Source of the DNA: a virus
Lineage: Duplodnaviria > Caudoviricetes
DNA: 64,000 nt
Direction: 5' to 3' (one strand)
Virus record (IMG/VR): IMGVR_UViG_3300037420_001376
Coordinates: 1 to 64,000 of that record
Shown: positions 25,435 to 44,534 of the stretch, piece by piece
How positions within the stretch are numbered: the stretch's first letter is position 1
Layout: every line of letters begins with the position of its first letter
The notes under the pieces: model-generated
Databases searched by the model: none
The model's input: the letters and a program-made list of their open reading frames with translations, nothing else
Told to the model about the DNA's origin: nothing
Program-made: the position numbers and the translations under genes

Positions 25435-26649
25435 TTAACCTGCAAGGAATCCGGTGCCACGCTTGTACTGCGTGGGAATATCGTAAGTACCAGAAGCTTT
25501 AATCTGCATAATTGCAGCACCGCCGCGCTGACGAATACCCGAACCAAAGCTGCGGGCATAAAAACCGTCAACGAGAGGATAGCGCTGGTAGTTACCAGGA
25601 ATAATGCGAAGACCCTGCATTGCCGGATTGGCGTGCTGGCGTAAACCAATCGGGTTACCGAGATTAAATCGGCCACCATAACCAATACCAACAAGATAAC
25701 CGGGAGGAATATAATCCTCTTCAACAATATTCCAGAAACCGTACGAGCCGATTACCGCTAATCCACCAAAAGTAGGTGCAGGCTGATTTCCTAATAAACC
25801 TTCGGCATTAGGCAGCATCATTGCTGGCTGAGTGGGCGAAGGAATAAAGTCATATCCTGCAGTCTGACCATTGTTATTCACAACACCACGACGGAACTGG
25901 CGAATAACGTCTGTCTCTGCTTTATTTGCCAAAAGCAAGAAACTGGTTCCGGCCTGCGGTGAATAACCATGCTCTGCAATAAGCTCCATTAAATCTTCAA
26001 CATCAGAAGAGTCAACGGTGCTATTGCCAGAAACAACGTAATGGCTGTGATTTTCGGTAAAGGTGTTGTTCTTAAAGCGTGGCGGTGCAACACCCTCACC
26101 GTTATACAGCGGGTAAACGTTGTACGCCTGGTTACGAATATTGGCCCGACGAGTACGATTGTCAAAAAGGGCTTCCATAACCTTTTTGAAAATAAGTCGC
26201 TTATCGGCCCAGAGAATGCTTTCGTGAATTGCCTCAACCTGGCGGGCGTCGGCTTCAGCTAAAAACATCCATGTATAGGCAGTACGCTTGTCGTAGTGAC
26301 GTAAATCGTAGCCCATTTGGAAAACTTCAATCGGCAAACCACTACCACGAGGAATGCCCATTTCGGTGGCTTCCTCGAACGTGGTTTCGCCAATTTGCAC
26401 CACAGGCTCAACCGGTGTAGTAACCGGATAAGTCAAAAGTGCAATTAGGTCATCCATTGCCTCATTGTAAATCGCAATGGATTCTGCGAAAGAATTCCAC
26501 AGAGCATTTAAATCAATACCGTCAGCGGTAACCGTAACCAAATCGCCTTGGGTAAGAATACCTTCTTGGCGAACCGGTGCAGTACCACCGAAAATAGGAC
26601 CAACGGGAATGCCCTTGACGAACAATCCGTTTTTCTTATATGCCATCAT
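25435..26649 (-). CDS. major capsid protein
   Basis: ~404 aa after scaffold/decoration genes, followed by strong hairpin; start moved to ATG 26649 (GGAAGG RBS). Confidence 0.85.
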   Translation of the reverse strand: MMAYKKNGLFVKGIPVGPIFGGTAPVRQEGILTQGDLVTVTADGIDLNALWNSFAESIAIYNEAMDDLIALLTYPVTTPVEPVVQIGETTFEEATEMGIPRGSGLPIEVFQMGYDLRHYDKRTAYTWMFLAEADARQVEAIHESILWADKRLIFKKVMEALFDNRTRRANIRNQAYNVYPLYNGEGVAPPRFKNNTFTENHSHYVVSGNSTVDSSDVEDLMELIAEHGYSPQAGTSFLLLANKAETDVIRQFRRGVVNNNGQTAGYDFIPSPTQPAMMLPNAEGLLGNQPAPTFGGLAVIGSYGFWNIVEEDYIPPGYLVGIGYGGRFNLGNPIGLRQHANPAMQGLRIIPGNYQRYPLVDGFYARSFGSGIRQRGGAAIMQIKASGTYDIPTQYKRGTGFLAG

Positions 26650-26677
26650 GGCATTCCCTTCCAATCTGACTTTAAAA

Positions 26678-27370
26678 TTACGGAGTCGCGTCAAGAACAT
26701 TAACGATTAAACGATCTTTTTCTGCGGTATGTCCAACATAAACACCGTCAGAACCCTTTGTTGCGGTAACGGAACCGTCAGCATGTGCGTAATAATTCTG
26801 ACCTGCAACCGGAGTGGTTGCACCAGCGGTTACCGTTGCACCGGTTCCTGCAGCTAAAGTAAATCCATCGGCCACTTGCGCCGAAAAATTAGGTGCAGTT
26901 CCAGTAACAGTGACATCGGCATCAACCATATTGTCGTCAACGGCAACAATTGCTGCCTCAACAGCAGTATTAGTTGCGTTAAACGCAATATTGCCGGTAA
27001 CTTTTCCGTTTACCGTTAAAGTGAAGCTGCCAGAACCAACGGTTACAACAATCGCGTAAGTACCGTCAGCTGGATTTGCAACAAAGTTAACGATTTCACC
27101 ATGTTTGCCAACGTCACATGGATCACCAGATTGGTTATTAATTCCACCGTCTAAAAGGTTTCCATGAATATCTGCGCCAACCGGCACAATCATTAAACCT
27201 TTAATTCCGGTTTGACCACTTCCGATTACAACTGCACCATCAGAATTTAATCCGACACCGAGAACCACATTGGCTTCAGTATCTAAATCAATATCTTCGG
27301 CCAGAACACCACGAAAGTTGCCCATGTAGCCGTCGTATTTATCCCAACGCGGCTTAGTCGCCAGAGCCAT
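26678..27370 (-). CDS. capsid decoration / minor head protein (putative)
   Basis: Between scaffold and capsid; Thr/Val/Gly-rich beta insertion; GGAGG RBS. Confidence 0.6.
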   Translation of the reverse strand: MALATKPRWDKYDGYMGNFRGVLAEDIDLDTEANVVLGVGLNSDGAVVIGSGQTGIKGLMIVPVGADIHGNLLDGGINNQSGDPCDVGKHGEIVNFVANPADGTYAIVVTVGSGSFTLTVNGKVTGNIAFNATNTAVEAAIVAVDDNMVDADVTVTGTAPNFSAQVADGFTLAAGTGATVTAGATTPVAGQNYYAHADGSVTATKGSDGVYVGHTAEKDRLIVNVLDATP

Positions 27371-27447: not shown

Positions 27448-28212
27448 TCACCCTAAAGCTGCACGTCCAGAAGCAATCACCGGCCACTTGGCTTCCAGTT
27501 CCTTGCGGCGTTGGGCTGCAGTGGGATTGGTCGGTGCCGGTCCTGGGGGATTTCCGGTAGAACGGCGTTGACGCGATGGTGGCGGATTATCGTCAATCGT
27601 GGGCTTTTTCACCAAATATGGATAATCTTTAGCAATACGAGAAAGTTCATTTTCAATACCACTAGCTGTTGCTCTTCCGGCTTCTAAATCAACCTCAAGA
27701 TCATAACCACCGGCGTCTAATTTAGAAATCACATCATCGACATTATGAAATTGAAGATTCTCATTTCCCTGAATTGCGTTCACCACTGCAAGGCGCTTAA
27801 TAACTTGATCCATACGATCAATTGTTTCCTGAGCCTTAGTTAAATCCTCAGTTAAGGCTTCTTCGCGACCAAGGCTTTTCTTGCGCTCGTCCTCTTCTTT
27901 AGTCTGATATCCTTGAAGCGTCTGAGTAAGCTCAGTATTTTTCTGAGTTAATTGAGCAACCTGCGTAGTTAATTGCGCAAATTGTTCTGGCGTAATTTCT
28001 TTTGTACCATCCCCGCCACCTGAACTTGTGGCACTATCGTCAGGATCACCAGAAGGTTTATTTTCGGCGGGAGTAGAACCAGCGGGCTCGGCTGAGGTTC
28101 CACCGAAAATCGGCAAAGCTGCTTTAGCTGCTTCTAAAGAATTAATCTTTACAGAAAAATCAAAACTATTTGCAGGTGTTAATCCGCTGTATTTGGTTTG
28201 GAAGGGCATCAT
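27448..28212 (-). CDS. scaffolding protein
   Basis: Low-complexity N-terminus, long coiled coil, Pro-rich C-terminus; start moved to ATG 28212. Confidence 0.8.
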   Translation of the reverse strand: MMPFQTKYSGLTPANSFDFSVKINSLEAAKAALPIFGGTSAEPAGSTPAENKPSGDPDDSATSSGGGDGTKEITPEQFAQLTTQVAQLTQKNTELTQTLQGYQTKEEDERKKSLGREEALTEDLTKAQETIDRMDQVIKRLAVVNAIQGNENLQFHNVDDVISKLDAGGYDLEVDLEAGRATASGIENELSRIAKDYPYLVKKPTIDDNPPPSRQRRSTGNPPGPAPTNPTAAQRRKELEAKWPVIASGRAALG

Positions 28213-28243
28213 TTCATGTTCTTTCATGGGCTGGGTAGAGCGT

Positions 28244-29176
28244 TTACGCTGCATTGCTAATCCAATCGTTATAGTACCCGGCTGTCAAGTTTCTAGTGAA
28301 CACATCAAGAGATTCGACCTGCGGTGTCACAAAGCACCGGCATTGCGGGTGGGGTTTGGGAGGTACGTTGTCAACGTCAAACAATTGTTCTTTGTAACGA
28401 TCACAAATTTCTATTACGCCATCTTCAATTTCATGCGTTTGTGAAGTGTGCCAAACCATGCCTTGAACCCATGGACGATCTTGTGCAAGTGCAACACTAG
28501 TAGCATGAAAAGCATTATTAAGCTCGGTGCGACCGAGACGAAGGGCAGCATAACTGACCCCACCAGGGGTATTTGGCCTAATTGATCTTCTAACTTTTTC
28601 TGCAATTTCTTTCGCACTAGCGCCCCTAACTATTCCAGAATTAATTTCTCTTTGCACCCACGTATTTGCCATACGCCGGGTTCGATAAACTCTAGTAGAT
28701 AATGGCTGATTTGATTTTTCGAGGCGCGACACCAAGTTTGCCACTGATAATTCTGCCTGCACGTATTGGGATTGAATAAAGCCCTCAACGTTCCCTCTAG
28801 AGTTTTTAGCTGATTCAGCGAAAGCTCTGGAAAGAAAGTCTCTATCAGTTTCTGAGAAGGCAGTAACGGCTGCTCTAGCGGATTCTTTAGACCCGGCAGT
28901 AATGAGGGGGATTTGTTTTTTGAAGAGGTCATTGAGAACCTCGTTGACTATTTTCATCACTAGTCGCAATTGCGCAGTGCGGACACCCGATGAAAAAGTT
29001 GAGTTTGTGCTCAAAGCAGAGACTTCTTGTGCTGCATCTTGCGCTGCTTGGATTAATGCGGTACGAACCTTTGTATCGTGCCGGGACTGTATCATCAGAT
29101 ATTTCGTAAGCCATCTTTTCCTCAAAGTTTCAAAATCATCATTTAAACCCCCATCTAACGGAGTCGGCCTAGTCAC
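28244..29176 (-). CDS. MuF-like head morphogenesis / minor capsid protein
   Basis: C-terminal PPKPHPQCRC motif. Confidence 0.8.
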   Translation of the reverse strand: MTRPTPLDGGLNDDFETLRKRWLTKYLMIQSRHDTKVRTALIQAAQDAAQEVSALSTNSTFSSGVRTAQLRLVMKIVNEVLNDLFKKQIPLITAGSKESARAAVTAFSETDRDFLSRAFAESAKNSRGNVEGFIQSQYVQAELSVANLVSRLEKSNQPLSTRVYRTRRMANTWVQREINSGIVRGASAKEIAEKVRRSIRPNTPGGVSYAALRLGRTELNNAFHATSVALAQDRPWVQGMVWHTSQTHEIEDGVIEICDRYKEQLFDVDNVPPKPHPQCRCFVTPQVESLDVFTRNLTAGYYNDWISNAA

Positions 29177-29609
29177 CCAGTAACCTCCACTCCGTTACGT
29201 CACCCCTGCTGACCAGGAAATACCGCCAACCCAGCGCCGGATTGGGCCAACCCACCAGATCACGCGGGCTCGGCCAGGGGTAGCCGTTGGGATGGGTATG
29301 ATAAATACCTAAAATCTCAGTTTGCTTTTTTCCATAAATTTCGTCTAACACCCATTCAGTGTCTTTTGGGTGCATATAAAAATTCATGCGCGGTTCTAAA
29401 TGTGAATTTAAAACACCGATCACTTCAAATTCAGACGTAATGAATCCGCATCGTTCTTCTGAATGTCTAAAGCACTCGTCCAATAATTCAGAACGAGTGC
29501 TTTCAGGCAAAGGATTATGAGAGTAGAAAAGCTGTTCGGCTTGTCTACCCTTAGATGAAATTAAATAATTACTATGTCCAGGGTGCGCTGGATTATTAAG
29601 GTCCAACAT
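29169..29609 (-). CDS. JAB/MPN+ (JAMM) metalloprotease
   Basis: EERCG plus H-T-H-x7-S-x2-D (HTHPNGYPWPSPRD), complete JAMM signature. Confidence 0.85.
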   Translation of the reverse strand: MLDLNNPAHPGHSNYLISSKGRQAEQLFYSHNPLPESTRSELLDECFRHSEERCGFITSEFEVIGVLNSHLEPRMNFYMHPKDTEWVLDEIYGKKQTEILGIYHTHPNGYPWPSPRDLVGWPNPALGWRYFLVSRGDVTEWRLLGD

Positions 29610-29621
29610 GATGCTCCGCGT

Positions 29622-30197
29622 CTACTTACCACGTCTTTGTGGCCTAACTACTTTTTTACCAGCAATGGCTCGCATTCTCGTGTCGTATTTTTTCACCCCT
29701 TTTCGAGTCTGAGTAAGCGGTGTTTTATGCTTCCCACGACGTAAAATAATCGTAGGACCGGCTCCGCGAGAACTACCAAGGCGAGCCTGGTGTCTACCGA
29801 CATTTGCTCGAATTGTGGGATTTGTAATCGTAACGTTTTCTTTGAAATATTTCCTGACTTTACCTCGGGTAGTTCCATAGGGCATCGCCTTATTTCCAGC
29901 TTTAGCTAATGCTTTATCGATTGCGCCTTTACGGTTGGTGTTTTCGACCCGAACGTATCCACCAAACACAAGGCGTTTGCCAGTTCCAGGCAAAATTGAG
30001 CCGGTATTAAATCCTGCAGTTTGGCTCCTTTTATTGGCTCGAAGATATGGCACAGTGTTTTTTGTAAAACCATGCTTACCAACCCCACGAGTTACAGGAT
30101 TACTACCATATAATCTTTTAGACTTTCTTTTACGTGCTCTACGAGCCTTTGCTAGCGCTGCCGCTCTAGCAGGTGTAAAGACATAGGCTCTAGTCAT
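29622..30197 (-). CDS. Arg/Lys-rich basic protein (array member)
   Basis: N-terminal TPARAAALAKARRARKRK. Confidence 0.8.
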   Translation of the reverse strand: MTRAYVFTPARAAALAKARRARKRKSKRLYGSNPVTRGVGKHGFTKNTVPYLRANKRSQTAGFNTGSILPGTGKRLVFGGYVRVENTNRKGAIDKALAKAGNKAMPYGTTRGKVRKYFKENVTITNPTIRANVGRHQARLGSSRGAGPTIILRRGKHKTPLTQTRKGVKKYDTRMRAIAGKKVVRPQRRGK

Positions 30198-30199
30198 GA

Positions 30200-30568
30200 T
30201 TACCGCACTCTACTACGAATTCTTGTTCCTGTGTGCCTACCAGAGATGTGTGTTGCTCGCCCACGACCGTAGTAACGGAGCGGTTTATGATTTGAACGCA
30301 AAGCCACGCCGGGGGCATTTGGATCGACCCGTGGTCCTTTAGATAAATAACCTTTGACCGCTTTATAATGTTTAGGAACTAATTGAGGATTGCGTGCATA
30401 ATTATTTGCATGATGAACTAAAGCACCTACGGCAACCGTACCCGCCACGGAGCCAACAGCTTTTAATCCACCAATAACAGCGCGTTTACGCCTTTTTCGT
30501 GCGCTCGCTTTTTGTGCTCGTGCTAAAGCTGCGCGACGTGCAGGGGTCATGCGATAGCGTTTAGCCAT
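30200..30568 (-). CDS. Arg/Lys-rich basic protein (array member)
   Basis: TPARRAALARAQKASARKRR then Gly/Ala hydrophobic segment. Confidence 0.8.
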   Translation of the reverse strand: MAKRYRMTPARRAALARAQKASARKRRKRAVIGGLKAVGSVAGTVAVGALVHHANNYARNPQLVPKHYKAVKGYLSKGPRVDPNAPGVALRSNHKPLRYYGRGRATHISGRHTGTRIRSRVR

Positions 30569-30569
30569 A

Positions 30570-31364
30570 TTATTCTCCGAAGTCTTTAATCCACTGCTCT
30601 AAAGCTTTAGCCTCAAGAGTTTGTTTTGGTTGGCCCTTGCGCGTAACACCTGCACGAGAATTAACTGGTTTAATGGGTGGCTTTTTACCTTTTAATTTCT
30701 TACCGGCATATACGCGAGTCACCGAACCGTCAGCGATCATGGAATGCAAAATGCCAGAAGCATCAACATCTTCGCCAGTAATTTTTCCTTTAGCCTGCGC
30801 ATGTGCGTCTACTGCACGAGAAGCGGCATTGCCGGTAACTCGCTTTCCATAAACCAAACCTTTAACGCCTTTAGGTAAAAATTTATCAACGTTATATGGC
30901 CGATCAGAACCGGAAATAAGTTTATTGGTAACTTCTACATCTCGTTGTTGACGTGGGAAAGCATTATTGCGCGATGGATCAACAATATTGGGATTAACTT
31001 TTCCAAGGTCAATGCGCGTCATGGTTTTTGCGCCCTTGGTAGCAGCGGTTTTCTTGGTAGGCTTTTTAATTAAATTTCCACCAATAGCATTGGCTAAACG
31101 AACTCGTTCTTTAGAACCCGGTTGCACTGCGGCTTTCCAACGAACCGAAGTTGCCTGAATACTGGATCTATTTTTATATCCATAGATCGCTGCGGCTCCG
31201 ACACCAGCAATGGTTGCGCCGACAATTGCACCTTTAATCGCTGAATTGCGGCGGCCCTTGCGTTTTCTCGCGCTAATTGCCTGCGCTCGTCTAAGCGCGA
31301 CAGCACGCTTTTGTGTATATCTATATTGGCCTCGCCGCACATTTCGCCCTCGTTTCTTAGCCAT
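30570..31364 (-). CDS. Arg/Lys-rich basic protein (array member)
   Basis: TQKRAVALRRAQAISARKRK then GAIVGATIAGVGAAAIYG. Confidence 0.8.
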   Translation of the reverse strand: MAKKRGRNVRRGQYRYTQKRAVALRRAQAISARKRKGRRNSAIKGAIVGATIAGVGAAAIYGYKNRSSIQATSVRWKAAVQPGSKERVRLANAIGGNLIKKPTKKTAATKGAKTMTRIDLGKVNPNIVDPSRNNAFPRQQRDVEVTNKLISGSDRPYNVDKFLPKGVKGLVYGKRVTGNAASRAVDAHAQAKGKITGEDVDASGILHSMIADGSVTRVYAGKKLKGKKPPIKPVNSRAGVTRKGQPKQTLEAKALEQWIKDFGE

Positions 31365-32032
31365 TATCGCCTCTTTAAGTTTCTCAAGTAAACATCTAAA
31401 GGTTGACCATTGACTGTTGCCACACTTCTTGGTCGTTTCGGAACGAATTTTTTATCTTTGTAGTCATCACTTAATCGAATATCTCGACTGGGCAAACTAA
31501 CCGATTTTCCTTTAGCAAAAGTATATCCCGGAAAAATCTCTTTTCCACCAAGTGTTTTAATTGGTGTTTCTTTAGGTAATCGTTTACCACCAGAACCATA
31601 TCCACGAGTGGATTCTTTTCTATACTTTGGTGCAAATGGATTCTCAAAATGCTGACTGGCTAAAAGTCTATTGGTAGTTGTAGTGCCCAAAACCTGCTTC
31701 ATGGTTACCGGAGAGTGATTATAAGAAAGCCTTGTTTTAGTTGCACCTTTAGCACGAATTAAAGAAGCACCAGCTCTATTAACCGCAAATCGTGTACCAC
31801 TAGGCAACTGTTTTCCTGTGACACTAGAAACGTTGGCGTGTGTGGTTTTAGAAAAACTAGAGCCCGAAAGACGATGGCGGGCAACAACACCTGCTGTCGT
31901 TAAAGCGCCAACACTGACGGCACCAACGCCAATAGCAATTCTGCGATTACGCTTCTTGCGTGCTTGAACTAAATTCCTACGCGAAGCAACACGCTGTCTT
32001 GCAGTAGTTCTTTTACGTCTACGACTAGCCAC
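31364..32032 (-). CDS. Arg/Lys-rich basic protein (array member)
   Basis: TARQRVASRRNLVQARKKR then IAIGVGAVSVGALTTAGVVA. Confidence 0.8.
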   Translation of the reverse strand: MASRRRKRTTARQRVASRRNLVQARKKRNRRIAIGVGAVSVGALTTAGVVARHRLSGSSFSKTTHANVSSVTGKQLPSGTRFAVNRAGASLIRAKGATKTRLSYNHSPVTMKQVLGTTTTNRLLASQHFENPFAPKYRKESTRGYGSGGKRLPKETPIKTLGGKEIFPGYTFAKGKSVSLPSRDIRLSDDYKDKKFVPKRPRSVATVNGQPLDVYLRNLKRR

Positions 32033-32474
32033 GTCTTGCTCGCTTTCGTCTTTGTGTTCTCGGGCTCATTCCATCATATTTAGAACGAATCTTTTTCTCA
32101 TAACCTGGCACCAATCCGGCTCTGCGCTTTGCATCATATAAACCACGCGGCCTACGCACATACGTTGCCTCACCAGAAGAATTAACTTTAAATGCACCTT
32201 TTCGCGCAGGAATTGGCCGTTTAACAGTACGAACTTTGGTGACATTTCTGCCCGGTGGCAAAGCTAATTGATGGGTGGGATGAAAAGCAGATGGGCGATA
32301 TGGCCTGCGTAAATGATTAACGTAGCTTCTACCGGCTACACCCAAAACCGTTGCGGCACCAATGGTTCCAACAATACCTGCGCCAATGGCAATTCTTTTA
32401 TTTCTTTTACGGCGCGCAGCAATCAAGTTGCGCCGTGACGCAACTCGCTGTTTTGCACTACGCCGTTTAGCCAT
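32025..32474 (-). CDS. Arg/Lys-rich basic protein (array member)
   Basis: SAKQRVASRRNLIAARRKR then IAIGAGIVGTIGAATVLGVAG. Confidence 0.8.
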   Translation of the reverse strand: MAKRRSAKQRVASRRNLIAARRKRNKRIAIGAGIVGTIGAATVLGVAGRSYVNHLRRPYRPSAFHPTHQLALPPGRNVTKVRTVKRPIPARKGAFKVNSSGEATYVRRPRGLYDAKRRAGLVPGYEKKIRSKYDGMSPRTQRRKRARRG

Positions 32475-32695
32475 TAACGTCTACGTCTGCGCTTTCTGTT
32501 CTCAATATCATTAATCTCTTTAAGATTAACGATCATACCCGCCACGCCTAAAGTGGCTTTATTTCCAGCCCTACGAACACCTTTAGCAATCCAATAACCA
32601 ACCTGATTTTTGGCGCTGGTGTGTTTCTTTCGCGCAGAAATCCTTTGGGCCTTTAAAATGGATTGCCTTCGTTTAGGCGTTAAACGATAGGCCAT
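32474..32695 (-). CDS. Arg/Lys-rich basic protein (array member)
   Basis: RLTPKRRQSILKAQRISARKK; TAATG coupling. Confidence 0.75.
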   Translation of the reverse strand: MAYRLTPKRRQSILKAQRISARKKHTSAKNQVGYWIAKGVRRAGNKATLGVAGMIVNLKEINDIENRKRRRRR

Positions 32696-33054
32696 TATCG
32701 CCTCTGCTTTGCATAAGCGCTATAAACTTGAGCGTGGGTTAAGTGCTTTACTTTCTTTTTAGATGTTTTGCGCTTCTTTGGTCGTAAAACCCCAACAGCA
32801 ACGTTGTGTCTACCTACGCGACCACGAACGGCAACATGTTGAGAGCTTCTATGAGCACTAATTCTTTTAGTTTTCTTTCTAGACTTAGAATGAGAAACTT
32901 GTGCTCGATAACCTTTTTTATGCGCTAAATATGCAGCACCACCTGCTAACGCAACACCGGTGGCTACTCCTGCAGCTATACGACGTCTGCGTCGTTTCTT
33001 TCGGGCTTTTTCTAGATTTCTCCTAGAAGCAGCTTTTTGCCTAGCGGTCGCCAT
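32695..33054 (-). CDS. Arg/Lys-rich basic protein (array member)
   Basis: TARQKAASRRNLEKARKKR then IAAGVATGVALAGGAAYLA. Confidence 0.8.
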   Translation of the reverse strand: MATARQKAASRRNLEKARKKRRRRRIAAGVATGVALAGGAAYLAHKKGYRAQVSHSKSRKKTKRISAHRSSQHVAVRGRVGRHNVAVGVLRPKKRKTSKKKVKHLTHAQVYSAYAKQRR

Positions 33055-33055
33055 A

Positions 33056-33493
33056 TTAATATCGCGTTCTTACAGAAACCGATCCATGACGGCTTGCAAC
33101 AAACACACGATTATGCTTGGTAGCACCGCGACTACGCGCGACGGGGCGTGTATTTGAATAGTGCACTCTGCGCTTTTTATCTTGCTTTAAATGTGCGGCA
33201 TAGTCGTTATAGAACTTTTTAGAATTAGCGCTGTACTTTTTAGCAGCGGCTTGGCCTTTTTTATGTTTGCCATAAGCGTGTGCAACATGGGCTGCGCCAT
33301 AAGCGACTAATGCAGCGCCAGCAACATAATTTCCAGCATTGCGCCGTAAATGTCCTTTTACGCCACCACCAGAAATTTTACGATTGGCAGCGGCTAATTT
33401 GCCTTTACCTTTTCCACGGCGTTTTCGTGCAGAAGCGGCTTGAGCTTTTTTCAACGCCGCTCTACGAGCAGGCGTCATTCGATGTGCTGCCAT
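33056..33493 (-). CDS. Arg/Lys-rich basic protein (array member)
   Basis: RMTPARRAALKKAQAASARKRR. Confidence 0.8.
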   Translation of the reverse strand: MAAHRMTPARRAALKKAQAASARKRRGKGKGKLAAANRKISGGGVKGHLRRNAGNYVAGAALVAYGAAHVAHAYGKHKKGQAAAKKYSANSKKFYNDYAAHLKQDKKRRVHYSNTRPVARSRGATKHNRVFVASRHGSVSVRTRY

Positions 33494-33660
33494 TATCGCC
33501 GCCTAACAGTAAACCTCGGTCCACCACCAATAAATAATAAGTACACCCCATACACACACAGCAATATCCCAGCAATGAGCAGAATAATATGCAATACGTA
33601 GGGCATTACGACTAAAAAAGCGATAAGTAAACAGGCGATTCCAGCAAGTAACGCTCCCAT
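33493..33660 (-). CDS. small two-TM membrane protein (55 aa, not in ORF track)
   Basis: MGALLAGIACLLIAFLVVMPYVLHIILLIAGILLCVYGVYLLFIGGGPRFTVRRR; TAATG overlaps at both ends. Confidence 0.75.
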   Translation of the reverse strand: MGALLAGIACLLIAFLVVMPYVLHIILLIAGILLCVYGVYLLFIGGGPRFTVRRR

Positions 33661-33845
33661 TAGCGTCTACCTTTCTTTCCAGAATGCTTGGATTCGGGCA
33701 GGCGGCGATACCTTATTTTTTTGCCGCCTTTAGTGCGATGGGCCATGCGATGCGCGAATTCTTTTTTGTTCGCGAAAGCCCATTTCCATTGCTTTTTCGA
33801 GAAGAAGCCAGTTTTGCGACCTTTACGCTTTTTCTTTTTTGCCAC
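33660..33845 (-). CDS. small basic protein (first of array)
   Basis: MAKKKKRKGRKTGFFSKKQWKWAFA; Lys/Arg-rich. Confidence 0.7.
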   Translation of the reverse strand: MAKKKKRKGRKTGFFSKKQWKWAFANKKEFAHRMAHRTKGGKKIRYRRLPESKHSGKKGRR

Positions 33846-33884
33846 GTCACATCACCTGAAGTGTTGATCATCGTGGCTAAGATT

Positions 33885-35537
33885 CTACGCGGTCACACCC
33901 AAATCAACGGTTTGCTCATCCGGCGTGTTGGGCACGGGATTGCCCTGGTCATCGACGCTTTGGCCCTGATCTTGGCCACCTGCGCCCAACGCGAACGGAT
34001 CTAGCGCTGCGGCCTGGGCAGCACTTTGAGATACCAACATTTCTGCTAAATCATCATCGGTTAACGGATTTCCCAAAGCATCATGAGTTGGCCACTTCCA
34101 TCCTAATTCTCTTAGCTTTTGAATCATCATTACTGTGAGAATCATATTGGATGAATATAAAAGTTGTGTCTCGGTGATTTCAGTATCACGGTTTTTCGGC
34201 ATGGGATCATCAAACACACACACCACGGTAAGCTCTGCCATTTTTGCCGCATCGCCAAACATTTCTGGCTCATAGGCGGGCAACCATTGCGTGGTAATAT
34301 CGAAATGCATCTGATCTAAAATCATGAGCATTTCAAGTTCTAGCTCTTCATTAGACGCCAACAAAGGCATCATTTGAAGTTGTAGCGATATTCCGCTTTC
34401 AGCAACCGCCACATCAACGCGACCAATCGCAATTTCAGGCGTACCTGAAGATTCGCTAATACCTTTTTCATCAATCCAATTCATGTGTTCTTGGAATGGG
34501 GAAACCGAATCCACACCAGTAACTTTGTCAAATTTCTGTTCTTGACCAATTTCAATGACTTGTTTCGGCCCAATATTCCAATCGGTGGGATTGCCATTAT
34601 CATCTTTGGGTCTACCGGCAGTGGTGACATACATGCCCAAACCCTGAAAAACAATGGTGCAATCTTCATCCGTTAAAGATTGATTGATCGCATAAAGGAG
34701 TGTTTCAAGCCCCGTAAGTATAGAGTGTCCCCAAGTAGAATTTTGAGGCGCTCTTGTTCTCCATTTATAGATGGGAAGATTTGTGATGGGCACAGAATCA
34801 GACCCAATGAATTCCGGATCTTCGTCTTGATCACTATTGACAACTCGTTCTTGGTCTTCACGAGCTTTAACACTGCGATCATCCCATTTCCCTAATTCAT
34901 AAAACTTCAGTTCGCTAGTGACGCCAGTGACCGTGCCGGTTTCATCATAGACTTTGCGAAAAGTACGAACTTTAGCCACTTGCTTATCGGGCTTATCCGG
35001 TTCACGGAAGTCCTGAACTTTTTCAACAATATGATAACCACTTACTTCTTTGGCATCATGGGGAGACTCATTGATTTCAAAGATAAATCGGGGATCGAGT
35101 TCTTCGATACAAATTCGTTTTCCAGAAGTTTTATTAGGTTTGGCGTATACATAAAAGGCTGCATCTCCACGGACGAGGCCCCATCGTTTGTTTGACTCAA
35201 ATTTACTCCTAATGCCTTCGCGCTTATACGTATCTGCCCACCAAGCATCAACTGCTAATTGTGCAGCTTCATCACCAGTAGCATCAACAAACCATTGAAG
35301 ATTTTTACCAAGAAAACGAGTAGTCGCCTCTACAATCTTTTTAGCATTGGGAACAATCAGGGGAACTTGATCTTCACCACGTAAATTCAGCGCAAGATTT
35401 ATAGTAGAGTTAATATATAAATCTTCGTAATAATCGTACGCCTGAATGCGCTTTAAATCCCACGGGTCAACAATATTATCGTCGCCAGTTGTCAAAAAAT
35501 CTAAAGCGGCTTCATATTGCTTATTATTGTAGGGCAT
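33885..35537 (-). CDS. portal protein
   Basis: 550 aa directly after terminase; SGISLQLQMMPL motif typical of SPP1-like portals. Confidence 0.9.
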   Translation of the reverse strand: MPYNNKQYEAALDFLTTGDDNIVDPWDLKRIQAYDYYEDLYINSTINLALNLRGEDQVPLIVPNAKKIVEATTRFLGKNLQWFVDATGDEAAQLAVDAWWADTYKREGIRSKFESNKRWGLVRGDAAFYVYAKPNKTSGKRICIEELDPRFIFEINESPHDAKEVSGYHIVEKVQDFREPDKPDKQVAKVRTFRKVYDETGTVTGVTSELKFYELGKWDDRSVKAREDQERVVNSDQDEDPEFIGSDSVPITNLPIYKWRTRAPQNSTWGHSILTGLETLLYAINQSLTDEDCTIVFQGLGMYVTTAGRPKDDNGNPTDWNIGPKQVIEIGQEQKFDKVTGVDSVSPFQEHMNWIDEKGISESSGTPEIAIGRVDVAVAESGISLQLQMMPLLASNEELELEMLMILDQMHFDITTQWLPAYEPEMFGDAAKMAELTVVCVFDDPMPKNRDTEITETQLLYSSNMILTVMMIQKLRELGWKWPTHDALGNPLTDDDLAEMLVSQSAAQAAALDPFALGAGGQDQGQSVDDQGNPVPNTPDEQTVDLGVTA

Positions 35538-35546
35538 CGCACTAGC

Positions 35547-37199
35547 CTACTTGCTCATCCAGTTAGACCTGCGCTTATTAGTGTGGCGTGTCGCAATCCC
35601 AGCAGGTGTCGACCCATACCCATCACCAGTTCTATACCGGGTATTTCCCAGATTCGACAGAAACTTAGCCTTAGAAATTCTAGTACCACCACCATACTGT
35701 TCAGAAGCACTGTGGTAACGACTTGCTAAAAATCTACCTAAAGCTTCTGGCGTATGGTCATCTTTTTTGAGTGGTAATTCAAACCTTTTAACCGAAGTTT
35801 CTTGTTGCTCGTCCTTTTTCTCAGGATACCGGTATTCACCGAATTCATATATCGTATGTGGACATTTGGTCGAAATCATTAATCTTGGTCTTTTAACATC
35901 CTGCCTCGGAGGATGAGATTTCCAATTTGTCTTATTGACTTCCGTATCGTTTACTCGATCTTTTAACGCTAAGCGAATAAGGTTGAGTCGATCTTGTAAT
36001 TCGCCGCCGGTGTGGGGCCTAGCTCTAATTTGTTTCCCAGCTCGCAAAAATATATTTTCCAAGGTTCTGGTATCCCCGGGTAGTGCAGGGTCGGGGAAGA
36101 ATTCTTGACAGCTATCGGGTAACAAGCCTCTTCGGAGAACTTCTTTTGCGAATTCATCAGGCGCTAACGTGTCTTGATATAATTCATCGATAACATTTAT
36201 TTCACCCCAAGGACCAATTTGAATAAGCAGCCATACCGAAGGATTGCGATATCCATAGTCAACAGCAGCCACCGTTTCCCAACTCGGATTGTATGGTAAT
36301 AGTCGAGTGTGTGTCTCTTCGTTGTATTCCTTAAATACCTTTCCAACGAAATCTGTAAAGTCAGCGGCAATTTCCTGCTGAAACTTAGGGATGGTAAGGG
36401 CATCTGCTTGAACCACGATTTCTGAATCAATTGTCAATCCTTGCATGGCAACTATTTCAGCAGCGGTGTATTCAGGGTTTTCCTGCATCATGTAAAGCAT
36501 TTGCTTCACATGAGCATCAACAGTTTCTTCAAGATAAACGTATGGATTATACCAACTAGGAATTCTATGAGCGCTCCATAATTCTTTCCTACGAGCGTCC
36601 ATAAATAACTTATAAAACCAATTTTTACCTTCTGGTGTGGAAGTGAATTTAGCCCATCCCTTATTATCCGAAAGCGACGGCATCACATACTGCGTCCACA
36701 CCTCTTCTTTAAGTTTTGCCGCCTCTTCCATATGCACACCGCTTAACGCCTCGCCAACCAGCGTGTCAGGGTGCTGTGCAGATTTTGCGCTATAAATAAA
36801 ACGACCATCCCACAATGAGATAGTCATTTGGCCAGAACCAGGAGAATTATATGATCCTGGTTTATCCATGGGAATTTCTAATCTACGACATAAATCCCAA
36901 AAGACACGAAAGGGCTTCTCAGAGTCAGAATACTGTGGACCTACTGACCAAAATTCTCTACGCTTGCCTTCGGCTTTTAAATGATGAGCGATCTTTTGAG
37001 TCAGTGCCGCTTCTGGCAATAACTCATTGGCCACCATTTTAGATTTACCAAAACGTCGTCCACAAGAGGCAACCAAAAAACGGGCTGGATCTTCCATTAA
37101 ACGCAATTGTGCGCGATGAGGATCGAAGACTTTTTCTTCTCTACCGTTTTCTGGATTTACATAATCTCTATCCAGTATGGCCCACTTTGAGAATCCCAT
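35547..37199 (-). CDS. terL: terminase large subunit
   Basis: Walker A GRRFGKS, Walker B VHMEEAA, TSTPEGKNWFY coupling motif, AVDYG nuclease motif. Confidence 0.95.
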   Translation of the reverse strand: MGFSKWAILDRDYVNPENGREEKVFDPHRAQLRLMEDPARFLVASCGRRFGKSKMVANELLPEAALTQKIAHHLKAEGKRREFWSVGPQYSDSEKPFRVFWDLCRRLEIPMDKPGSYNSPGSGQMTISLWDGRFIYSAKSAQHPDTLVGEALSGVHMEEAAKLKEEVWTQYVMPSLSDNKGWAKFTSTPEGKNWFYKLFMDARRKELWSAHRIPSWYNPYVYLEETVDAHVKQMLYMMQENPEYTAAEIVAMQGLTIDSEIVVQADALTIPKFQQEIAADFTDFVGKVFKEYNEETHTRLLPYNPSWETVAAVDYGYRNPSVWLLIQIGPWGEINVIDELYQDTLAPDEFAKEVLRRGLLPDSCQEFFPDPALPGDTRTLENIFLRAGKQIRARPHTGGELQDRLNLIRLALKDRVNDTEVNKTNWKSHPPRQDVKRPRLMISTKCPHTIYEFGEYRYPEKKDEQQETSVKRFELPLKKDDHTPEALGRFLASRYHSASEQYGGGTRISKAKFLSNLGNTRYRTGDGYGSTPAGIATRHTNKRRSNWMSK

Positions 37200-43544: not shown

Positions 43545-44534
43545 GCTGTTGATTGAACGGGTCACAGCAAACCCGGTGAGAACACGAAAGACGGCAGAGG
43601 CATCCCCGAAGCACGCGCTCACCGGGTCTGAACTTTCATAACTCCATCGAAAAGCTTTGGGGCATGGCCCTATAACTACGGGCAACCGTAGGAAAGGCTG
43701 GCATGACACCCGGCCACTACACCCTCTCGCCTTCGGGCGAAAGGCTCTGTAGCAAACCATGCACGGCAGTCCTTAAAAATTCAACTGAGGTTGGATTTGG
43801 ATATCGACCGGAACTGTGTGAAACACCAACTAGCGTAAAAAACTAGAGTTTCAGCCATTGCGAGAATGCGGCAAGTTGGCAGCAGGGAAAAGGAAGATAA
43901 TCTTGGAGTGCGGGGAACGTTTTTAAAACTGCGAGTAGGCATACAAGTGGGCGTTTCAGGAAATTCTGGGCTAGGCAGGCATGTCTAGGAAGTACAGAAA
44001 AGTACAGAGAAAGTAGACCGCAAATCGAAATCTCCGTTGGCGTGAAGCATTCCGTAGCTTAAAAGGGTACGGAACTTCATGGGGAAGCACGTCAACAGTC
44101 CGGAGTTATCCGTTAAATATCACACGCTGTGTTAGCTCAATTTGGCGAGAGCATTCTGTTAGGGACAGAAATGTTGGTGGTTCGATTCCTCCACACAAAA
44201 AGCAAAAGTCTTTCCCCTTCGTTAACGAAAGCGTCATCTAAGCCGTAGCGCGTAAGCGAACTACGGAATCTCTGAGCCGCAAGCAATATGGGATTTTCAT
44301 AAACAAGTAGTTGTAGGCAGTGGGCGGCCACCTATTGTTGAAACGAAAGTTGTGGAGTAGTTAACGAGAGAAAACGAGTGGTTTACGTTCCCCACTAAAA
44401 ACTACTTCGGTAGGTTTGAAAAGGAAAACAAACCGGGCGTGGTGATTACAAGTGAGAGCTTGTGGAAAAGTTGCTAAACCATAAGGCAACGAAAGATCAC
44501 TAAAAGAGGCGGGTATTCTCACCGCCTCTTTTTT
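43545..44534 (+). ncRNA. large structured non-coding RNA (GOLLD-like candidate)
   Basis: ~1 kb with no credible ORF; many nested stems with cUUCGg and GNRA loops and G.U pairs on + strand; ends at a U-tract terminator. Confidence 0.75.
44126..44200 (+). tRNA. degenerate tRNA-Pro(AGG)-like module embedded in the ncRNA
   Basis: D arm GCTC/GAGC, anticodon arm TTCTG-TTAGGGA-CAGAA, T loop TTCGATT; only 5 acceptor pairs, no CCA. Confidence 0.65.

What the first reader, a model, noticed from the sequence alone, without database searches (positions are those of the whole stretch)
29622..33845. Tandem array of nine highly basic small proteins in two paralog subfamilies between portal and head genes
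Seen: nine coupled, Arg/Lys-dominated ORFs over 4.2 kb. Five share T-[PQ]-x-R-x-[AS]-x-x-x-x-A-[QR]-x-x-x-x-R-K (29622, 30200, 30570, 32474, 33056). Three share [TS]-A-[RK]-Q-x-x-A-S-R-R-N-L-x-x-A-R-[KR]-K-R (31364, 32025, 32695). Most follow the motif with a Gly/Ala-rich hydrophobic stretch and then divergent basic tails. Inference: a conserved N-terminal address tag on variable cargo, such as protamine-like internal head proteins, ejected membrane-active proteins, or arginine-rich RNA binders (possibly for the large ncRNA). The expansion pattern suggests repeated duplication under selection.
Basis: partly seen in the sequence, partly recalled or inferred. Interest (0 to 1): 0.8.

Follow-up and report, generated by a model that had tools for sequence, protein, structure and literature searches.

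The report
Tagged ultra-basic phage head proteins
A soil phage related to mycobacteriophage Patience encodes, between its portal and head-assembly genes, nine extremely basic small proteins; eight start with a conserved, swappable short helix, their Patience counterparts are known virion proteins, so they are most likely DNA-coating cargo loaded inside the head, though nobody has tested what the helix does.

Summary
Nine translationally coupled minus-strand ORFs (29622-33845) have pI 11.3-12.0 and net charge +19 to +46. A tenth, hydrophobic 55-aa ORF lies among them. Five carry N-terminal tag A and three carry tag B. Profiles built only from other phages recover exactly these eight among 740 six-frame ORFs.

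The window is a Patience-like actinophage (portal 61% identical). The array matches Patience gp10-gp18, which mass spectrometry found in virions (PMC4324244). Patience gp15 is not in the solved capsid shell (PDB 8GIU). The order TerL-portal-gp10-like-[tagged basic proteins]-gp18-like-JAB-MuF recurs in 19 related loci. A whole-library profile search found 866 protein clusters. The 148 examined are small, have median pI 12 and no Pfam domain, and nearly all carry the tag at the N-terminus.

Orthologous bodies carry tag A, tag B or a third tag (NPxQxRDxxGRW), so the tags are exchangeable modules.

Best reading (about 0.5): packaged polycationic internal head proteins with a loading or anchoring tag. 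GOLLD RNA binding is disfavoured, since five complete relatives have tagged proteins but no GOLLD. The 'maturation protease' label on the gp18 family found no support.

First-stage readers of this scan noted similar tagged arrays on other phage DNA. Novelty: new variant of a known kind.

The parts
33885..35537 (-). Portal protein (550 aa), upstream boundary of the array. Acidic (pI 4.4, net -42), with a disordered acidic C-tail ending in a conserved QTVDLGVT peptide.
   Evidence: phrog_64 E 3e-45; 61% identity to Patience gp8; charge and tail
33660..33845 (-). w61: 61-aa basic protein (43% K+R) without tag A or B. Orthologue of Patience gp10 (virion protein). Follows the portal in most related loci.
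   Evidence: phrog_1375 E 4e-25; 72% identity to Patience gp10; synteny; Patience Table 1
33493..33660 (-). w55: 55-aa very hydrophobic ORF (Kyte-Doolittle 2.83), coupled on both sides. No homologue found in related loci. Coding status is inferred from the tight coupling only.
33056..33493 (-). w145: tag A (residues 4-28), then a GKGKGK linker and a weakly hydrophobic stretch. Orthologue of Patience gp11.
   Evidence: E 8e-15; BLASTP to gp11 E 5e-8
32695..33054 (-). w119: tag B (residues 3-23), a Gly/Ala zipper segment (26-44) and a basic tail.
   Evidence: (E 4e-6)
32474..32695 (-). w73: tag A (3-27) and a short body ending in RKRRRRR. Positional counterpart of Patience gp12, which carries tag B.
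   Evidence: E 1.5e-8; body match to L003 79-aa protein
32025..32474 (-). w149: tag B (3-26), a hydrophobic Gly/Ala segment (28-46, KD 2.01) and a basic tail.
   Evidence: E 4e-7; orthologue P0187 58%
31364..32032 (-). w222: tag B (7-30), a hydrophobic segment (32-50) and a conserved ARHxLSGS block. Its orthologues in other phages carry tag A.
   Evidence: E 8e-7
30570..31364 (-). w264: tag A (14-38), a Gly/Ala zipper (42-60) and a mostly disordered basic body with a small helical C-terminal domain. Positional and partial sequence orthologue of Patience gp15.
   Evidence: E 5e-6; tag helix pLDDT about 89; 133 of 264 residues below 50
30200..30568 (-). w122: tag A (5-29), a Gly/Ala segment and a conserved HxNxY..P block. 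Orthologue of Patience gp17.
   Evidence: E 8e-8; E 4e-12
29622..30197 (-). w191: tag A (5-27) on a conserved beta-rich 150-aa domain with no hydrophobic segment. Orthologue of Patience gp18.
   Evidence: phrog_12708 E 1e-64; tblastn; 103 homologues; AF2 and fold searches without a match; no Pfam or PDB hit
29169..29609 (-). JAB/MPN protein (146 aa, HTHPNGYPWPSPRD motif), the conserved downstream neighbour. Corresponds to Patience gp19, called 'protease' in the Patience paper.
28244..29176 (-). MuF-like minor head protein (310 aa), downstream boundary of the conserved module.
   Evidence: phrog_1657, phrog_115 and others; synteny

Best explanation
The array encodes packaged internal proteins of the phage head, the counterparts of Patience gp10-gp18. 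Eight of the nine basic proteins are modular. (1) A 25-residue N-terminal basic helix, either tag A ([YH][RK][MF]-T-[PA]-x-R-[RK]-A-A-L-[RK]-K-A-Q-x-[AI]-S-A-[RK]-K-R-[RK]) or tag B ([TS]-A-x-Q-R-x-A-S-R-R-N-L-x-x-A-R-x-K-R). (2) Usually a Gly/Ala-zipper hydrophobic helix. (3) A fast-evolving, largely disordered polycationic tail, or in w191 a conserved beta-rich domain. Proposed mechanism: the tag is a shared handle that docks each protein to one common partner in the assembling procapsid. The partner is unknown; the acidic portal, the scaffold, the gp10-like protein and MuF are candidates. The hydrophobic helices bundle the proteins together. After the scaffold leaves, the cationic tails lie against the packaged DNA, neutralise part of its charge, and probably leave with it at ejection. 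Shown: the sequence features, the synteny, the orthology and the tag swapping; and, from the literature on the relative, virion association and absence of gp15 from the ordered shell. Inferred: location inside the head, the loading role of the tag, charge neutralisation and ejection.
For: Synteny and orthology with Patience gp10, gp11, gp15, gp17 and gp18. Patience gp111 and gp10-gp18 are listed as virion proteins by HPLC-MS/MS (PMC4324244). The solved Patience capsid (PDB 8GIU) has gp22 as its minor capsid protein, which matches window 26678-27370 at E 1e-83. Patience gp15 and the tag profile have no PDB match, so gp15 is not in the ordered shell (PMC11965321). The module TerL-portal-gp10-like-[tagged basic proteins]-gp18-like-JAB-MuF recurs in 19 loci, with 0-8 A/B-tagged proteins per array. 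The tag is always N-terminal and occurs nowhere else in the 64-kb window. It has 100% T and A columns and 88-95% R, A, L, Q, S, A, R columns over 64 tags, while codons differ freely and bodies are only 20-29% identical. This is more positional specificity than unspecific polyanion binding would need. Orthologous bodies carry different tags: gp18-like with A, with B (L014) or with NPxQxRDxxGRW (cluster H, L020, L021); w222 (B) against A-tagged orthologues; w73 (A) against gp12 (B). AF2 models the tag as a helix (pLDDT up to 89) and most of w264 as disordered. The whole-library profile search found 866 clusters; the 148 examined are 67-322 aa, have median pI 12.0 and no Pfam domain.
Against: No experiment places any of these proteins inside the head; virion MS cannot separate head interior from tail. 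The claim that gp15 is a major virion band rests on size matching only, and the band could be the acidic 420-copy gp22, so copy numbers are unknown. No docking partner is identified. Whether the tag is kept or cut off is unknown. The tag is not amphipathic and is itself very basic (hydrophobic moment 0.08-0.29), so it could simply be a nucleic-acid-binding helix. A and B are not demonstrably homologous (hhalign E 0.043, probability 1%). Patience packs DNA at ordinary density, which leaves limited room for bulky internal protein (my estimate from figures in PMC7150772 and PMC11965321).
Confidence: 0.5

Rival explanations
1. The N-terminal helix is the DNA-binding element, not an address. An arginine-rich helix lies in a DNA groove and the following Gly/Ala zipper oligomerises the proteins, a layout that recalls a basic region plus zipper. 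The proteins would enter proheads simply by electrostatic association with the acidic portal or scaffold, then condense DNA.
For: The tag is strongly basic on all helical faces. The conserved small and polar residues (A, Q, S, T) are the kind that allow close approach to a DNA backbone (my inference). Tag plus hydrophobic helix are modelled as one long helix in w264. The portal is pI 4.4 and net -42, and the scaffold is pI 5.2.
Against: No Pfam bZIP or other DNA-binding family matched at E up to 1. Three unrelated tag sequences occupy the same position on orthologous bodies, which fits docking signals better than one DNA-reading helix. w191 has the tag but no zipper. The tails are already polycationic, so a separate DNA-binding helix is not needed.
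Confidence: 0.22
2. Ejected membrane-active proteins. The Gly/Ala-zipper helices insert into the host membrane after ejection and help form or widen the DNA conduit, as podovirus ejection proteins do.
For: Hydrophobic segments with small-xxx-small repeats occur in most members (KD 1.5-2.0 in five) and in 75 of 148 family representatives. Relatives are virion-associated.
Against: Patience is a siphovirus with a tail about 330 nm long and a long tape measure (PMC7150772, PMC4324244), so no capsid-borne conduit is needed. The segments are only moderately hydrophobic and are flanked by dense positive charge on both sides. w191, w73 and w145 lack a convincing segment. There is no sequence or fold match to any ejection protein.
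Confidence: 0.12
3. Assembly-only core or scaffold accessories. The basic proteins pair with the acidic scaffold and portal to nucleate or size the supersized T=7 procapsid, and their presence in virions is a leftover.
For: Their position lies between the portal and the MuF and scaffold genes. Their charge is complementary to portal, scaffold and gp22-like proteins. The Patience capsid is unusually large for T=7 (PMC11965321).
Against: All Patience members were detected in mature particles. Copy number varies from 0 to 8 A/B-tagged genes among phages in the related loci, which is odd for a size-determining core.
Confidence: 0.08
4. Arginine-rich RNA binders for the GOLLD RNA encoded in the same genome.
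For: The arginine-rich helix superficially resembles viral RNA-binding arginine-rich motifs (from memory). GOLLD is present at 44035-44525 (191.7 bits).
Against: Patience, Konstantine, Barnyard, DrLupo and the L019 phage (all 99-100% complete) carry tagged proteins but have no GOLLD match in the same search.
Confidence: 0.02
5. Exported or membrane-anchored proteins that use a Tat- or Sec-like signal (RR motif plus Gly/Ala-rich hydrophobic region), unrelated to the virion interior.
For: Tag A contains R-R-A-A-L and tag B contains S-R-R-N-L, and a Gly/Ala-rich hydrophobic stretch follows.
Against: The hydrophobic stretch starts 15-25 very basic residues after the RR rather than right after it. 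The second R is K in 25% of tags. w191 has no hydrophobic region. No NCBIfam twin-arginine signal model matched at E up to 1. The Patience orthologues are virion proteins.
Confidence: 0.03

Closest known systems
Mycobacteriophage Patience gp10-gp18 (cluster U; also cluster H phages Barnyard, Predator, Konstantine, DrLupo)
   Same: Same gene order (portal, gp10-like, tagged basic proteins, gp18-like, JAB, MuF). Detectable orthology for five members. The same tags A and B occur in Patience (six A and one B). The Patience proteins were found in virions by MS (PMC4324244).
   Different: This phage has 44% GC, three B tags, an extra hydrophobic 55-aa ORF and no gp111, gp9 or gp16 counterparts, and its bodies are 20-29% identical. 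The Patience paper calls most of these genes orphams and does not use the words 'basic' or 'arginine'. I found no paper describing the shared tag, although the held library is incomplete.
Phage T4 internal proteins IPI, IPII and IPIII with their capsid targeting sequence (CTS)
   Same: Several small proteins carry a common N-terminal peptide, enter the prohead before DNA, sit with the DNA and are ejected. The T4 CTS can load foreign proteins (PMC7697877, citing Mullaney and Black 1996).
   Different: There is no sequence relation. The T4 CTS is about 10 residues and is removed by the prohead protease. Here the tag is a 25-residue basic helix, cleavage is unknown, the host phage is a siphovirus, and most members add a hydrophobic helix.
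Adenovirus core proteins VII, V and mu; protamine-like viral DNA-condensing proteins
   Same: Arginine- and lysine-rich, largely disordered proteins that would neutralise packaged dsDNA (comparison from general knowledge).
   Different: Unrelated virus lineage and packaging route. They have no shared N-terminal tag and no hydrophobic zipper.
Podovirus ejection proteins (P22 gp7/gp16/gp20, T7 gp14/gp15/gp16) and giant-phage ejection-protein paralog families (SPN3US, phiKZ)
   Same: Capsid-internal, non-icosahedral proteins encoded in the structural module. Some have hydrophobic segments, and giant phages have paralog families of them (PMC8954989, PMC5694885; listed).
   Different: No sequence or fold match was found. 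Those proteins are large and mostly not polycationic, and they serve short-tailed or giant phages.
Phage P1 Dar antirestriction cargo (DarB and partners)
   Different: That cargo is large enzymes rather than small polycations, and no homology was seen.

Membership tests
Patience-type head-module array (gp10-gp18 of cluster U/H actinophages) | Gene order TerL, portal, gp10-like, tagged basic proteins, gp18-like, JAB/MPN, MuF, scaffold | tested here: met
   the same order occurs in the window, in Patience and in the related loci.
Patience-type head-module array (gp10-gp18 of cluster U/H actinophages) | Sequence orthology of individual members | tested here: met
   w61/gp10 72%; w145/gp11 E 5e-8; w264/gp15 E 5e-6; w122/gp17 E 8e-8; w191/gp18 53%, E 1e-43. 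w119 and w149 have no Patience counterpart.
Patience-type head-module array (gp10-gp18 of cluster U/H actinophages) | Proteins are present in purified virions | not testable with these tools
   Known only for Patience itself (HPLC-MS/MS, PMC4324244).
T4-type internal proteins with a capsid targeting sequence | Several small basic head proteins share an N-terminal peptide | tested here: met
   Eight proteins share tag A or tag B.
T4-type internal proteins with a capsid targeting sequence | Sequence membership in T4 IP or CTS families | tested here: not met
   No Pfam, NCBIfam or PDB hit. PHROG hits are only to families of unknown function.
T4-type internal proteins with a capsid targeting sequence | The tag directs encapsidation and is removed by the prohead protease | not testable with these tools
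   Needs reporter fusions and N-terminal mapping of virion proteins.
Podovirus-type ejection proteins | Homology or shared fold with known ejection proteins | tested here: inconclusive
   Foldseek and VIA-align gave only noise (best Z 4.6). The models are of low to moderate confidence.
Twin-arginine (Tat) signal peptides | [ST]-R-R-x-F-L-K directly followed by a hydrophobic region and a cleavage site | tested here: not met
   The hydrophobic region begins 15-25 basic residues after the RR. The second R is K in 25% of tags. No NCBIfam Tat signal model matched. w191 has no hydrophobic region.
bZIP-type basic region plus zipper | Match to bZIP family models and a heptad leucine zipper | tested here: not met
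   No Pfam match at E up to 1. The following helix is Gly/Ala-rich, not a leucine heptad. The resemblance is from memory only.
Capsid maturation protease (database label of phrog_12708, the gp18 family) | Recognisable protease fold or catalytic motif | tested here: inconclusive
   None of 20 family members hits Pfam. The profile has no real PDB match. The AF2 model (pLDDT 67) has no fold match. The label therefore has no support here, but absence is not proven.

The most novel reading that the evidence does not exclude
Actinophage siphoviruses of the Patience, cluster H and related lineages use a modular addressing system. At least three interchangeable N-terminal peptides (tag A, tag B and NPxQxRDxxGRW) load a variable set of polycationic proteins into the head through one conserved receptor in the portal-gp10-gp18-JAB-MuF module. 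The tag would then be a portable encapsidation signal for siphovirus heads, and these phages would carry a protamine-like DNA coat that is not a recognised feature of siphoviruses.
Probability: 0.35. Interest if true: 0.7.

Novelty: new variant of a known kind. Interest (0 to 1): 0.55.

Why it matters
Internal head proteins are well studied in T4, in podoviruses and in giant phages, but hardly at all in siphoviruses. Here a large family (866 clusters at 50% identity) of ultra-basic proteins shares a sharply conserved, swappable N-terminal helix, and in one cultured relative these proteins are already known to be in the particle. If the helix is a loading signal, it offers a simple handle for putting foreign proteins into mycobacteriophage heads. 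It would also give a concrete function to a dozen 'orpham' virion genes in Patience-like phages. If the tails coat the DNA, they bear on how a supersized T=7 capsid tolerates its genome. All of this can be tested directly in Patience with Mycobacterium smegmatis.

Tried and rejected
- Megablast of 29000-36000 against cultured phages gave no match.
- The search for related loci with the single w191 protein found nothing; the alignment A1 was needed.
The closest metagenomic relatives (for example the 86%-identical P0002 on a 96.8-kb contig) could therefore not be fetched, and no dN/dS on close relatives was possible.
- tblastn of w122 and w149 against cultured phages gave no match, probably because of low-complexity masking.
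- The profile of the tag in 'longer' proteins found no fusion to any Pfam domain, so there is no evidence for enzymatic cargo.
- hhalign of tag A against tag B was not significant.
- Fold searches with the w191 and w264 models gave only noise. The ESM Atlas gave nothing usable for w122.
- Pfam, NCBIfam and PDB sequence searches of all members gave nothing above threshold.
- The GTDB genome scan for gp18-like prophage copies found none.
- The GOLLD co-occurrence idea was rejected.
- The Tat-signal idea was rejected.
- Recent duplication or gene conversion was rejected.
- A link between the array and the PIFGGT motif of scaffold and capsid was not pursued. The Patience paper places capsid cleavage at residues 82|83 (VVQ|IGE, conserved in the window), and I saw no such site in the array proteins.

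Full report
WHAT IS THERE. All genes around the finding run on the minus strand. In order of transcription they are as follows.
- Large terminase (35547-37199) and portal (33885-35537).
- A 61-aa basic protein, w61 (33660-33845).
- A 55-aa very hydrophobic ORF, w55 (33493-33660).
- Eight basic proteins: w145, w119, w73, w149, w222, w264, w122 and w191 (33493 down to 29622).
- A JAB/MPN protein (29169-29609), a MuF-like protein (28244-29176), the scaffold (27448-28254), a gp22-like minor capsid protein (26678-27370) and the major capsid protein (25435-26700).

The nine basic proteins have pI 11.3-12.0, 22-43% K+R and net charge +19 to +46. Among 69 minus-strand ORFs of at least 100 aa in the window, the only ones with pI of 11 or more are the seven array members of that size. 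Junctions are 1-nt stop/start overlaps, one 8-nt overlap or gaps of 1-12 nt, and an ATAATGGC junction recurs.

THE MOTIFS ARE REAL. Five proteins carry tag A and three carry tag B, always within the first 38 residues. Pattern B fits all three. In a non-circular test, HMMs built only from tags of other phages (59 A, 3 B) recover exactly the five A ORFs (E 8e-15 to 3e-5) and the three B ORFs (E 4e-7 to 4e-6) out of 740 six-frame ORFs of the window. The next best hit has E about 0.5. Outside the tag and the following Gly/Ala-rich stretch, the paralogs share no significant similarity. At the DNA level the tag regions are only 55% identical per column, with free codon choice, and the region holds no long direct repeats. 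The paralogs are therefore old and are kept alike by selection on the peptide, not by recent duplication or gene conversion.

WHAT THE PHAGE IS. The window is 64 kb of a 72.3-kb IMG/VR virus record. Its portal is 61% identical to gp8 of mycobacteriophage Patience and 46-55% identical to cluster H phages. w191 matches Patience gp18 and the cluster H proteins annotated 'capsid maturation protease'.

Patience has the same layout: portal gp8, then gp111 and gp9-gp18, then gp19 (JAB) and gp20 (MuF). Its gp11, gp13, gp14, gp15, gp17 and gp18 begin with tag A and gp12 begins with tag B. Pairwise orthology is detectable for five members:
- w61/gp10, 72% identity;
- w145/gp11, E 5e-8;
- w264/gp15, E 5e-6;
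- w122/gp17, E 8e-8;
- w191/gp18, 53% identity.

EVIDENCE FROM THE LITERATURE ON THE RELATIVE. Pope et al. 2014 (PMC4324244) analysed purified Patience particles by HPLC-MS/MS and list gp111 and gp10-gp18 as virion proteins. They note that, apart from gp9, all the 'inserted' genes of the structural operon are present in particles. They call most of these genes orphams, and the paper does not contain the words 'basic' or 'arginine'.

They also proposed that gp15 is one of three major SDS-PAGE bands. That rests on size matching only. Podgorski et al. 2020 (PMC7150772) guessed that gp15 was a capsid accessory protein. The later 2.4 A map (PMC11965321) accounts for the shell with the major capsid protein, a trimeric minor capsid protein and gp4. 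The PDB copy confirms this. Entry 8GIU holds 'gp_22 (Minor Capsid Protein)', which matches the window's 230-aa protein at E 1e-83, whereas Patience gp15 and the tag profile have no PDB match.

So gp15 is a virion protein that is not part of the ordered shell. Because the acidic gp22 is present in 420 copies, the third major gel band may be gp22 rather than gp15. Copy numbers of the basic proteins are therefore unknown.

HOW WIDESPREAD IT IS. The gp18-like body has 103 homologues in the large protein collection, nearly all from metagenomes. Nineteen related loci from IMG/VR show the same module: TerL, portal, gp10-like, a run of tagged basic proteins, gp18-like, JAB, MuF. The number of A/B-tagged genes in the run, not counting a tagged gp18-like gene, varies widely:
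- seven or more in L003, L004 and L019;
- six in Patience;
- three in Barnyard and DrLupo;
- one in Konstantine and Predator;
- none in L020 and L021.

A profile of tag plus following segment was searched against 1.84 billion cluster representatives. It finds 866 proteins at E of 0.001 or better and 140 at 1e-10 or better. The 148 examined are 67-322 aa and have median pI 12.0 (minimum 10.7). The match is N-terminal in all but one, and none has a Pfam domain. A search among longer proteins found no fusion to a known domain. The 'variable cargo' is thus a set of variable polycationic tails, not enzymes.

The tag logo over 64 A tags is [YH][RK][MF]-T(100%)-[PA]-x-R(95)-[RK]-A-A(92)-L(94)-[RK]-K-A(100)-Q(88)-x-[AI]-S(95)-A(95)-[RK]-K-R(94)-[RK].

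THE TAGS ARE EXCHANGEABLE MODULES.
- The gp18-like body carries tag A in this window, in Patience and in most metagenomic relatives. It carries tag B in L014. It carries a third peptide, NPxQxRDxxGRW, in cluster H phages and in L020 and L021.
- w222 has tag B, but its orthologues (shared ARHxLSGS block) have tag A.
- w73 (tag A) corresponds by position to Patience gp12 (tag B).
- In L020 and L021, which lack A and B tags, the same interval encodes other ultra-basic proteins that start with the RDxxGR[WF] peptide.
- A profile-profile comparison of A and B is not significant. Their equivalence therefore rests on position and on these swaps, not on demonstrable homology.
- In the w145/gp11 and w122/gp17 pairs the tag is 76-80% identical while the bodies are 20-29% and the portal 61%.

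STRUCTURE. AF2 models the tag as a helix (residues 9-23 in w191; pLDDT about 89 in w264). Most of w264 is modelled as disordered, with a small helical C-terminal domain. The w191 body is a beta-rich domain of moderate confidence. No fold search gave a credible match. The profile of the gp18 family hits no Pfam family and no real PDB sequence. The database label 'head maturation protease' for this family (phrog_12708) therefore found no support here.

The tag helix is not amphipathic (hydrophobic moment 0.08-0.29). The hydrophobic stretch is rich in small-xxx-small repeats and only moderately hydrophobic.

MOST LIKELY MECHANISM. I read these as internal head proteins with three parts: a shared N-terminal docking helix, an oligomerising Gly/Ala helix and a DNA-facing polycationic tail. 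The steps shown are the sequence architecture, the synteny, the orthology to MS-detected virion proteins, the absence of gp15 from the ordered shell and the tag swapping. The steps inferred are location inside the head, loading through the tag, charge neutralisation and co-ejection.

As a scale (my arithmetic), one copy of each protein carries +312 charges against 144,656 phosphates. A meaningful share of neutralisation would therefore need tens to hundreds of copies of each.

A weak lead for the receptor is the portal. It is very acidic (pI 4.4, net -42 per subunit). Its disordered acidic C-tail ends in a conserved QTVDLGVT-like peptide in the A/B-tag phages but not in L020 and L021. That is effectively a single contrast.

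RIVALS. The helix could itself be the DNA binder. The hydrophobic helices could act on the host membrane after ejection. The proteins could be assembly-only partners of the acidic scaffold and portal. The GOLLD idea is disfavoured: the same search that finds GOLLD in this genome (191.7 bits) finds none in five complete relatives that carry tagged proteins. A Tat-like signal is unlikely for four reasons: the spacing, the variable second arginine, the absence of a model hit and the virion data.

COMPARISON AND NOVELTY. The nearest functional analogue is the T4 internal-protein system with its N-terminal capsid targeting sequence (PMC7697877), but there is no sequence relation and the tag differs in length and chemistry. 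The array itself is a new member of the Patience gp10-gp18 set. The shared, swappable tag and the size of the family appear undescribed in the papers I could search; that library is incomplete.

First-stage readers of this scan have noted similar tagged basic arrays on other phage DNA, including an AALRKAQLASAR array and RDxxGRW arrays. I treat those notes as leads only. The RDxxGRW tag I confirmed myself in related loci.

No tool here can test encapsidation, cleavage or DNA binding.

Noticed in passing
L020:4964-7186, L021:7118-8480; L007:7719-8492, L008:7770-8531, L013:7833-8468, L017:7854-8492: A third N-terminal tag, [YF]-N-P-x-Q-x-R-D-x-x-G-R-[WF] or KRDxRGRF, heads ultra-basic proteins in the same portal-to-MuF interval of distant relatives. 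It also heads the gp18-like protein of cluster H phages. The window itself has none.
   Followed up: partly
window 33885-34100 (portal C-terminus): The portal is very acidic (pI 4.4, net -42). Its disordered acidic C-tail ends in TPDEQTVDLGVTA. A QTVDLGVT-like end is conserved in phages with A/B-tag arrays and absent from L020 and L021. It may be a docking peptide, but this rests on a single contrast.
   Followed up: partly
window 33493-33660: A 55-aa strongly hydrophobic ORF (likely two membrane-type helices) is coupled at both ends inside the basic array. No homologue was found in the related loci or in the fetched proteins.
   Followed up: partly
window 29622-30197 and phrog_12708: The gp18 family is labelled 'head or capsid maturation protease' in RefSeq and PHROGs. 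Pfam, the PDB profile search and fold searches found nothing to support a protease.
   Followed up: yes
window 29169-29609: A stand-alone JAB/MPN protein with an intact HxHx7Sx2D motif is the invariant neighbour of the array in all loci that reach that far. No classical prohead protease was seen in the module.
   Followed up: no
window 25435-26700 and 27448-28254: The capsid N-terminus and the scaffold share PIFGGT, as in Patience. However, the Patience paper places capsid cleavage at residues 82|83 (VVQ|IGE), and that sequence is conserved in the window's capsid protein. The shared PIFGGT motif is thus more likely a binding motif than the cleavage site.
   Followed up: partly
window 26678-27370: The 230-aa acidic protein is the orthologue of Patience gp22, the trimeric minor capsid protein modelled in PDB 8GIU (E 1e-83). 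Its C-terminal half also matches Ig-like domains of tail tube and capsid proteins.
   Followed up: yes
window 44035-44525: GOLLD RNA (RF02032, 191.7 bits) is present in this genome. It is absent from Patience, Konstantine, Barnyard, DrLupo and the L019 phage.
   Followed up: yes
L011:7701-8885; L003:4776-5432; L018:480-1058: Variants of the module exist. One is a 394-aa protein with tag A, a long Gly/Ala-rich insert and the gp18-like domain. Others are extra tag-A proteins placed after the gp18-like gene or between JAB and MuF.
   Followed up: no
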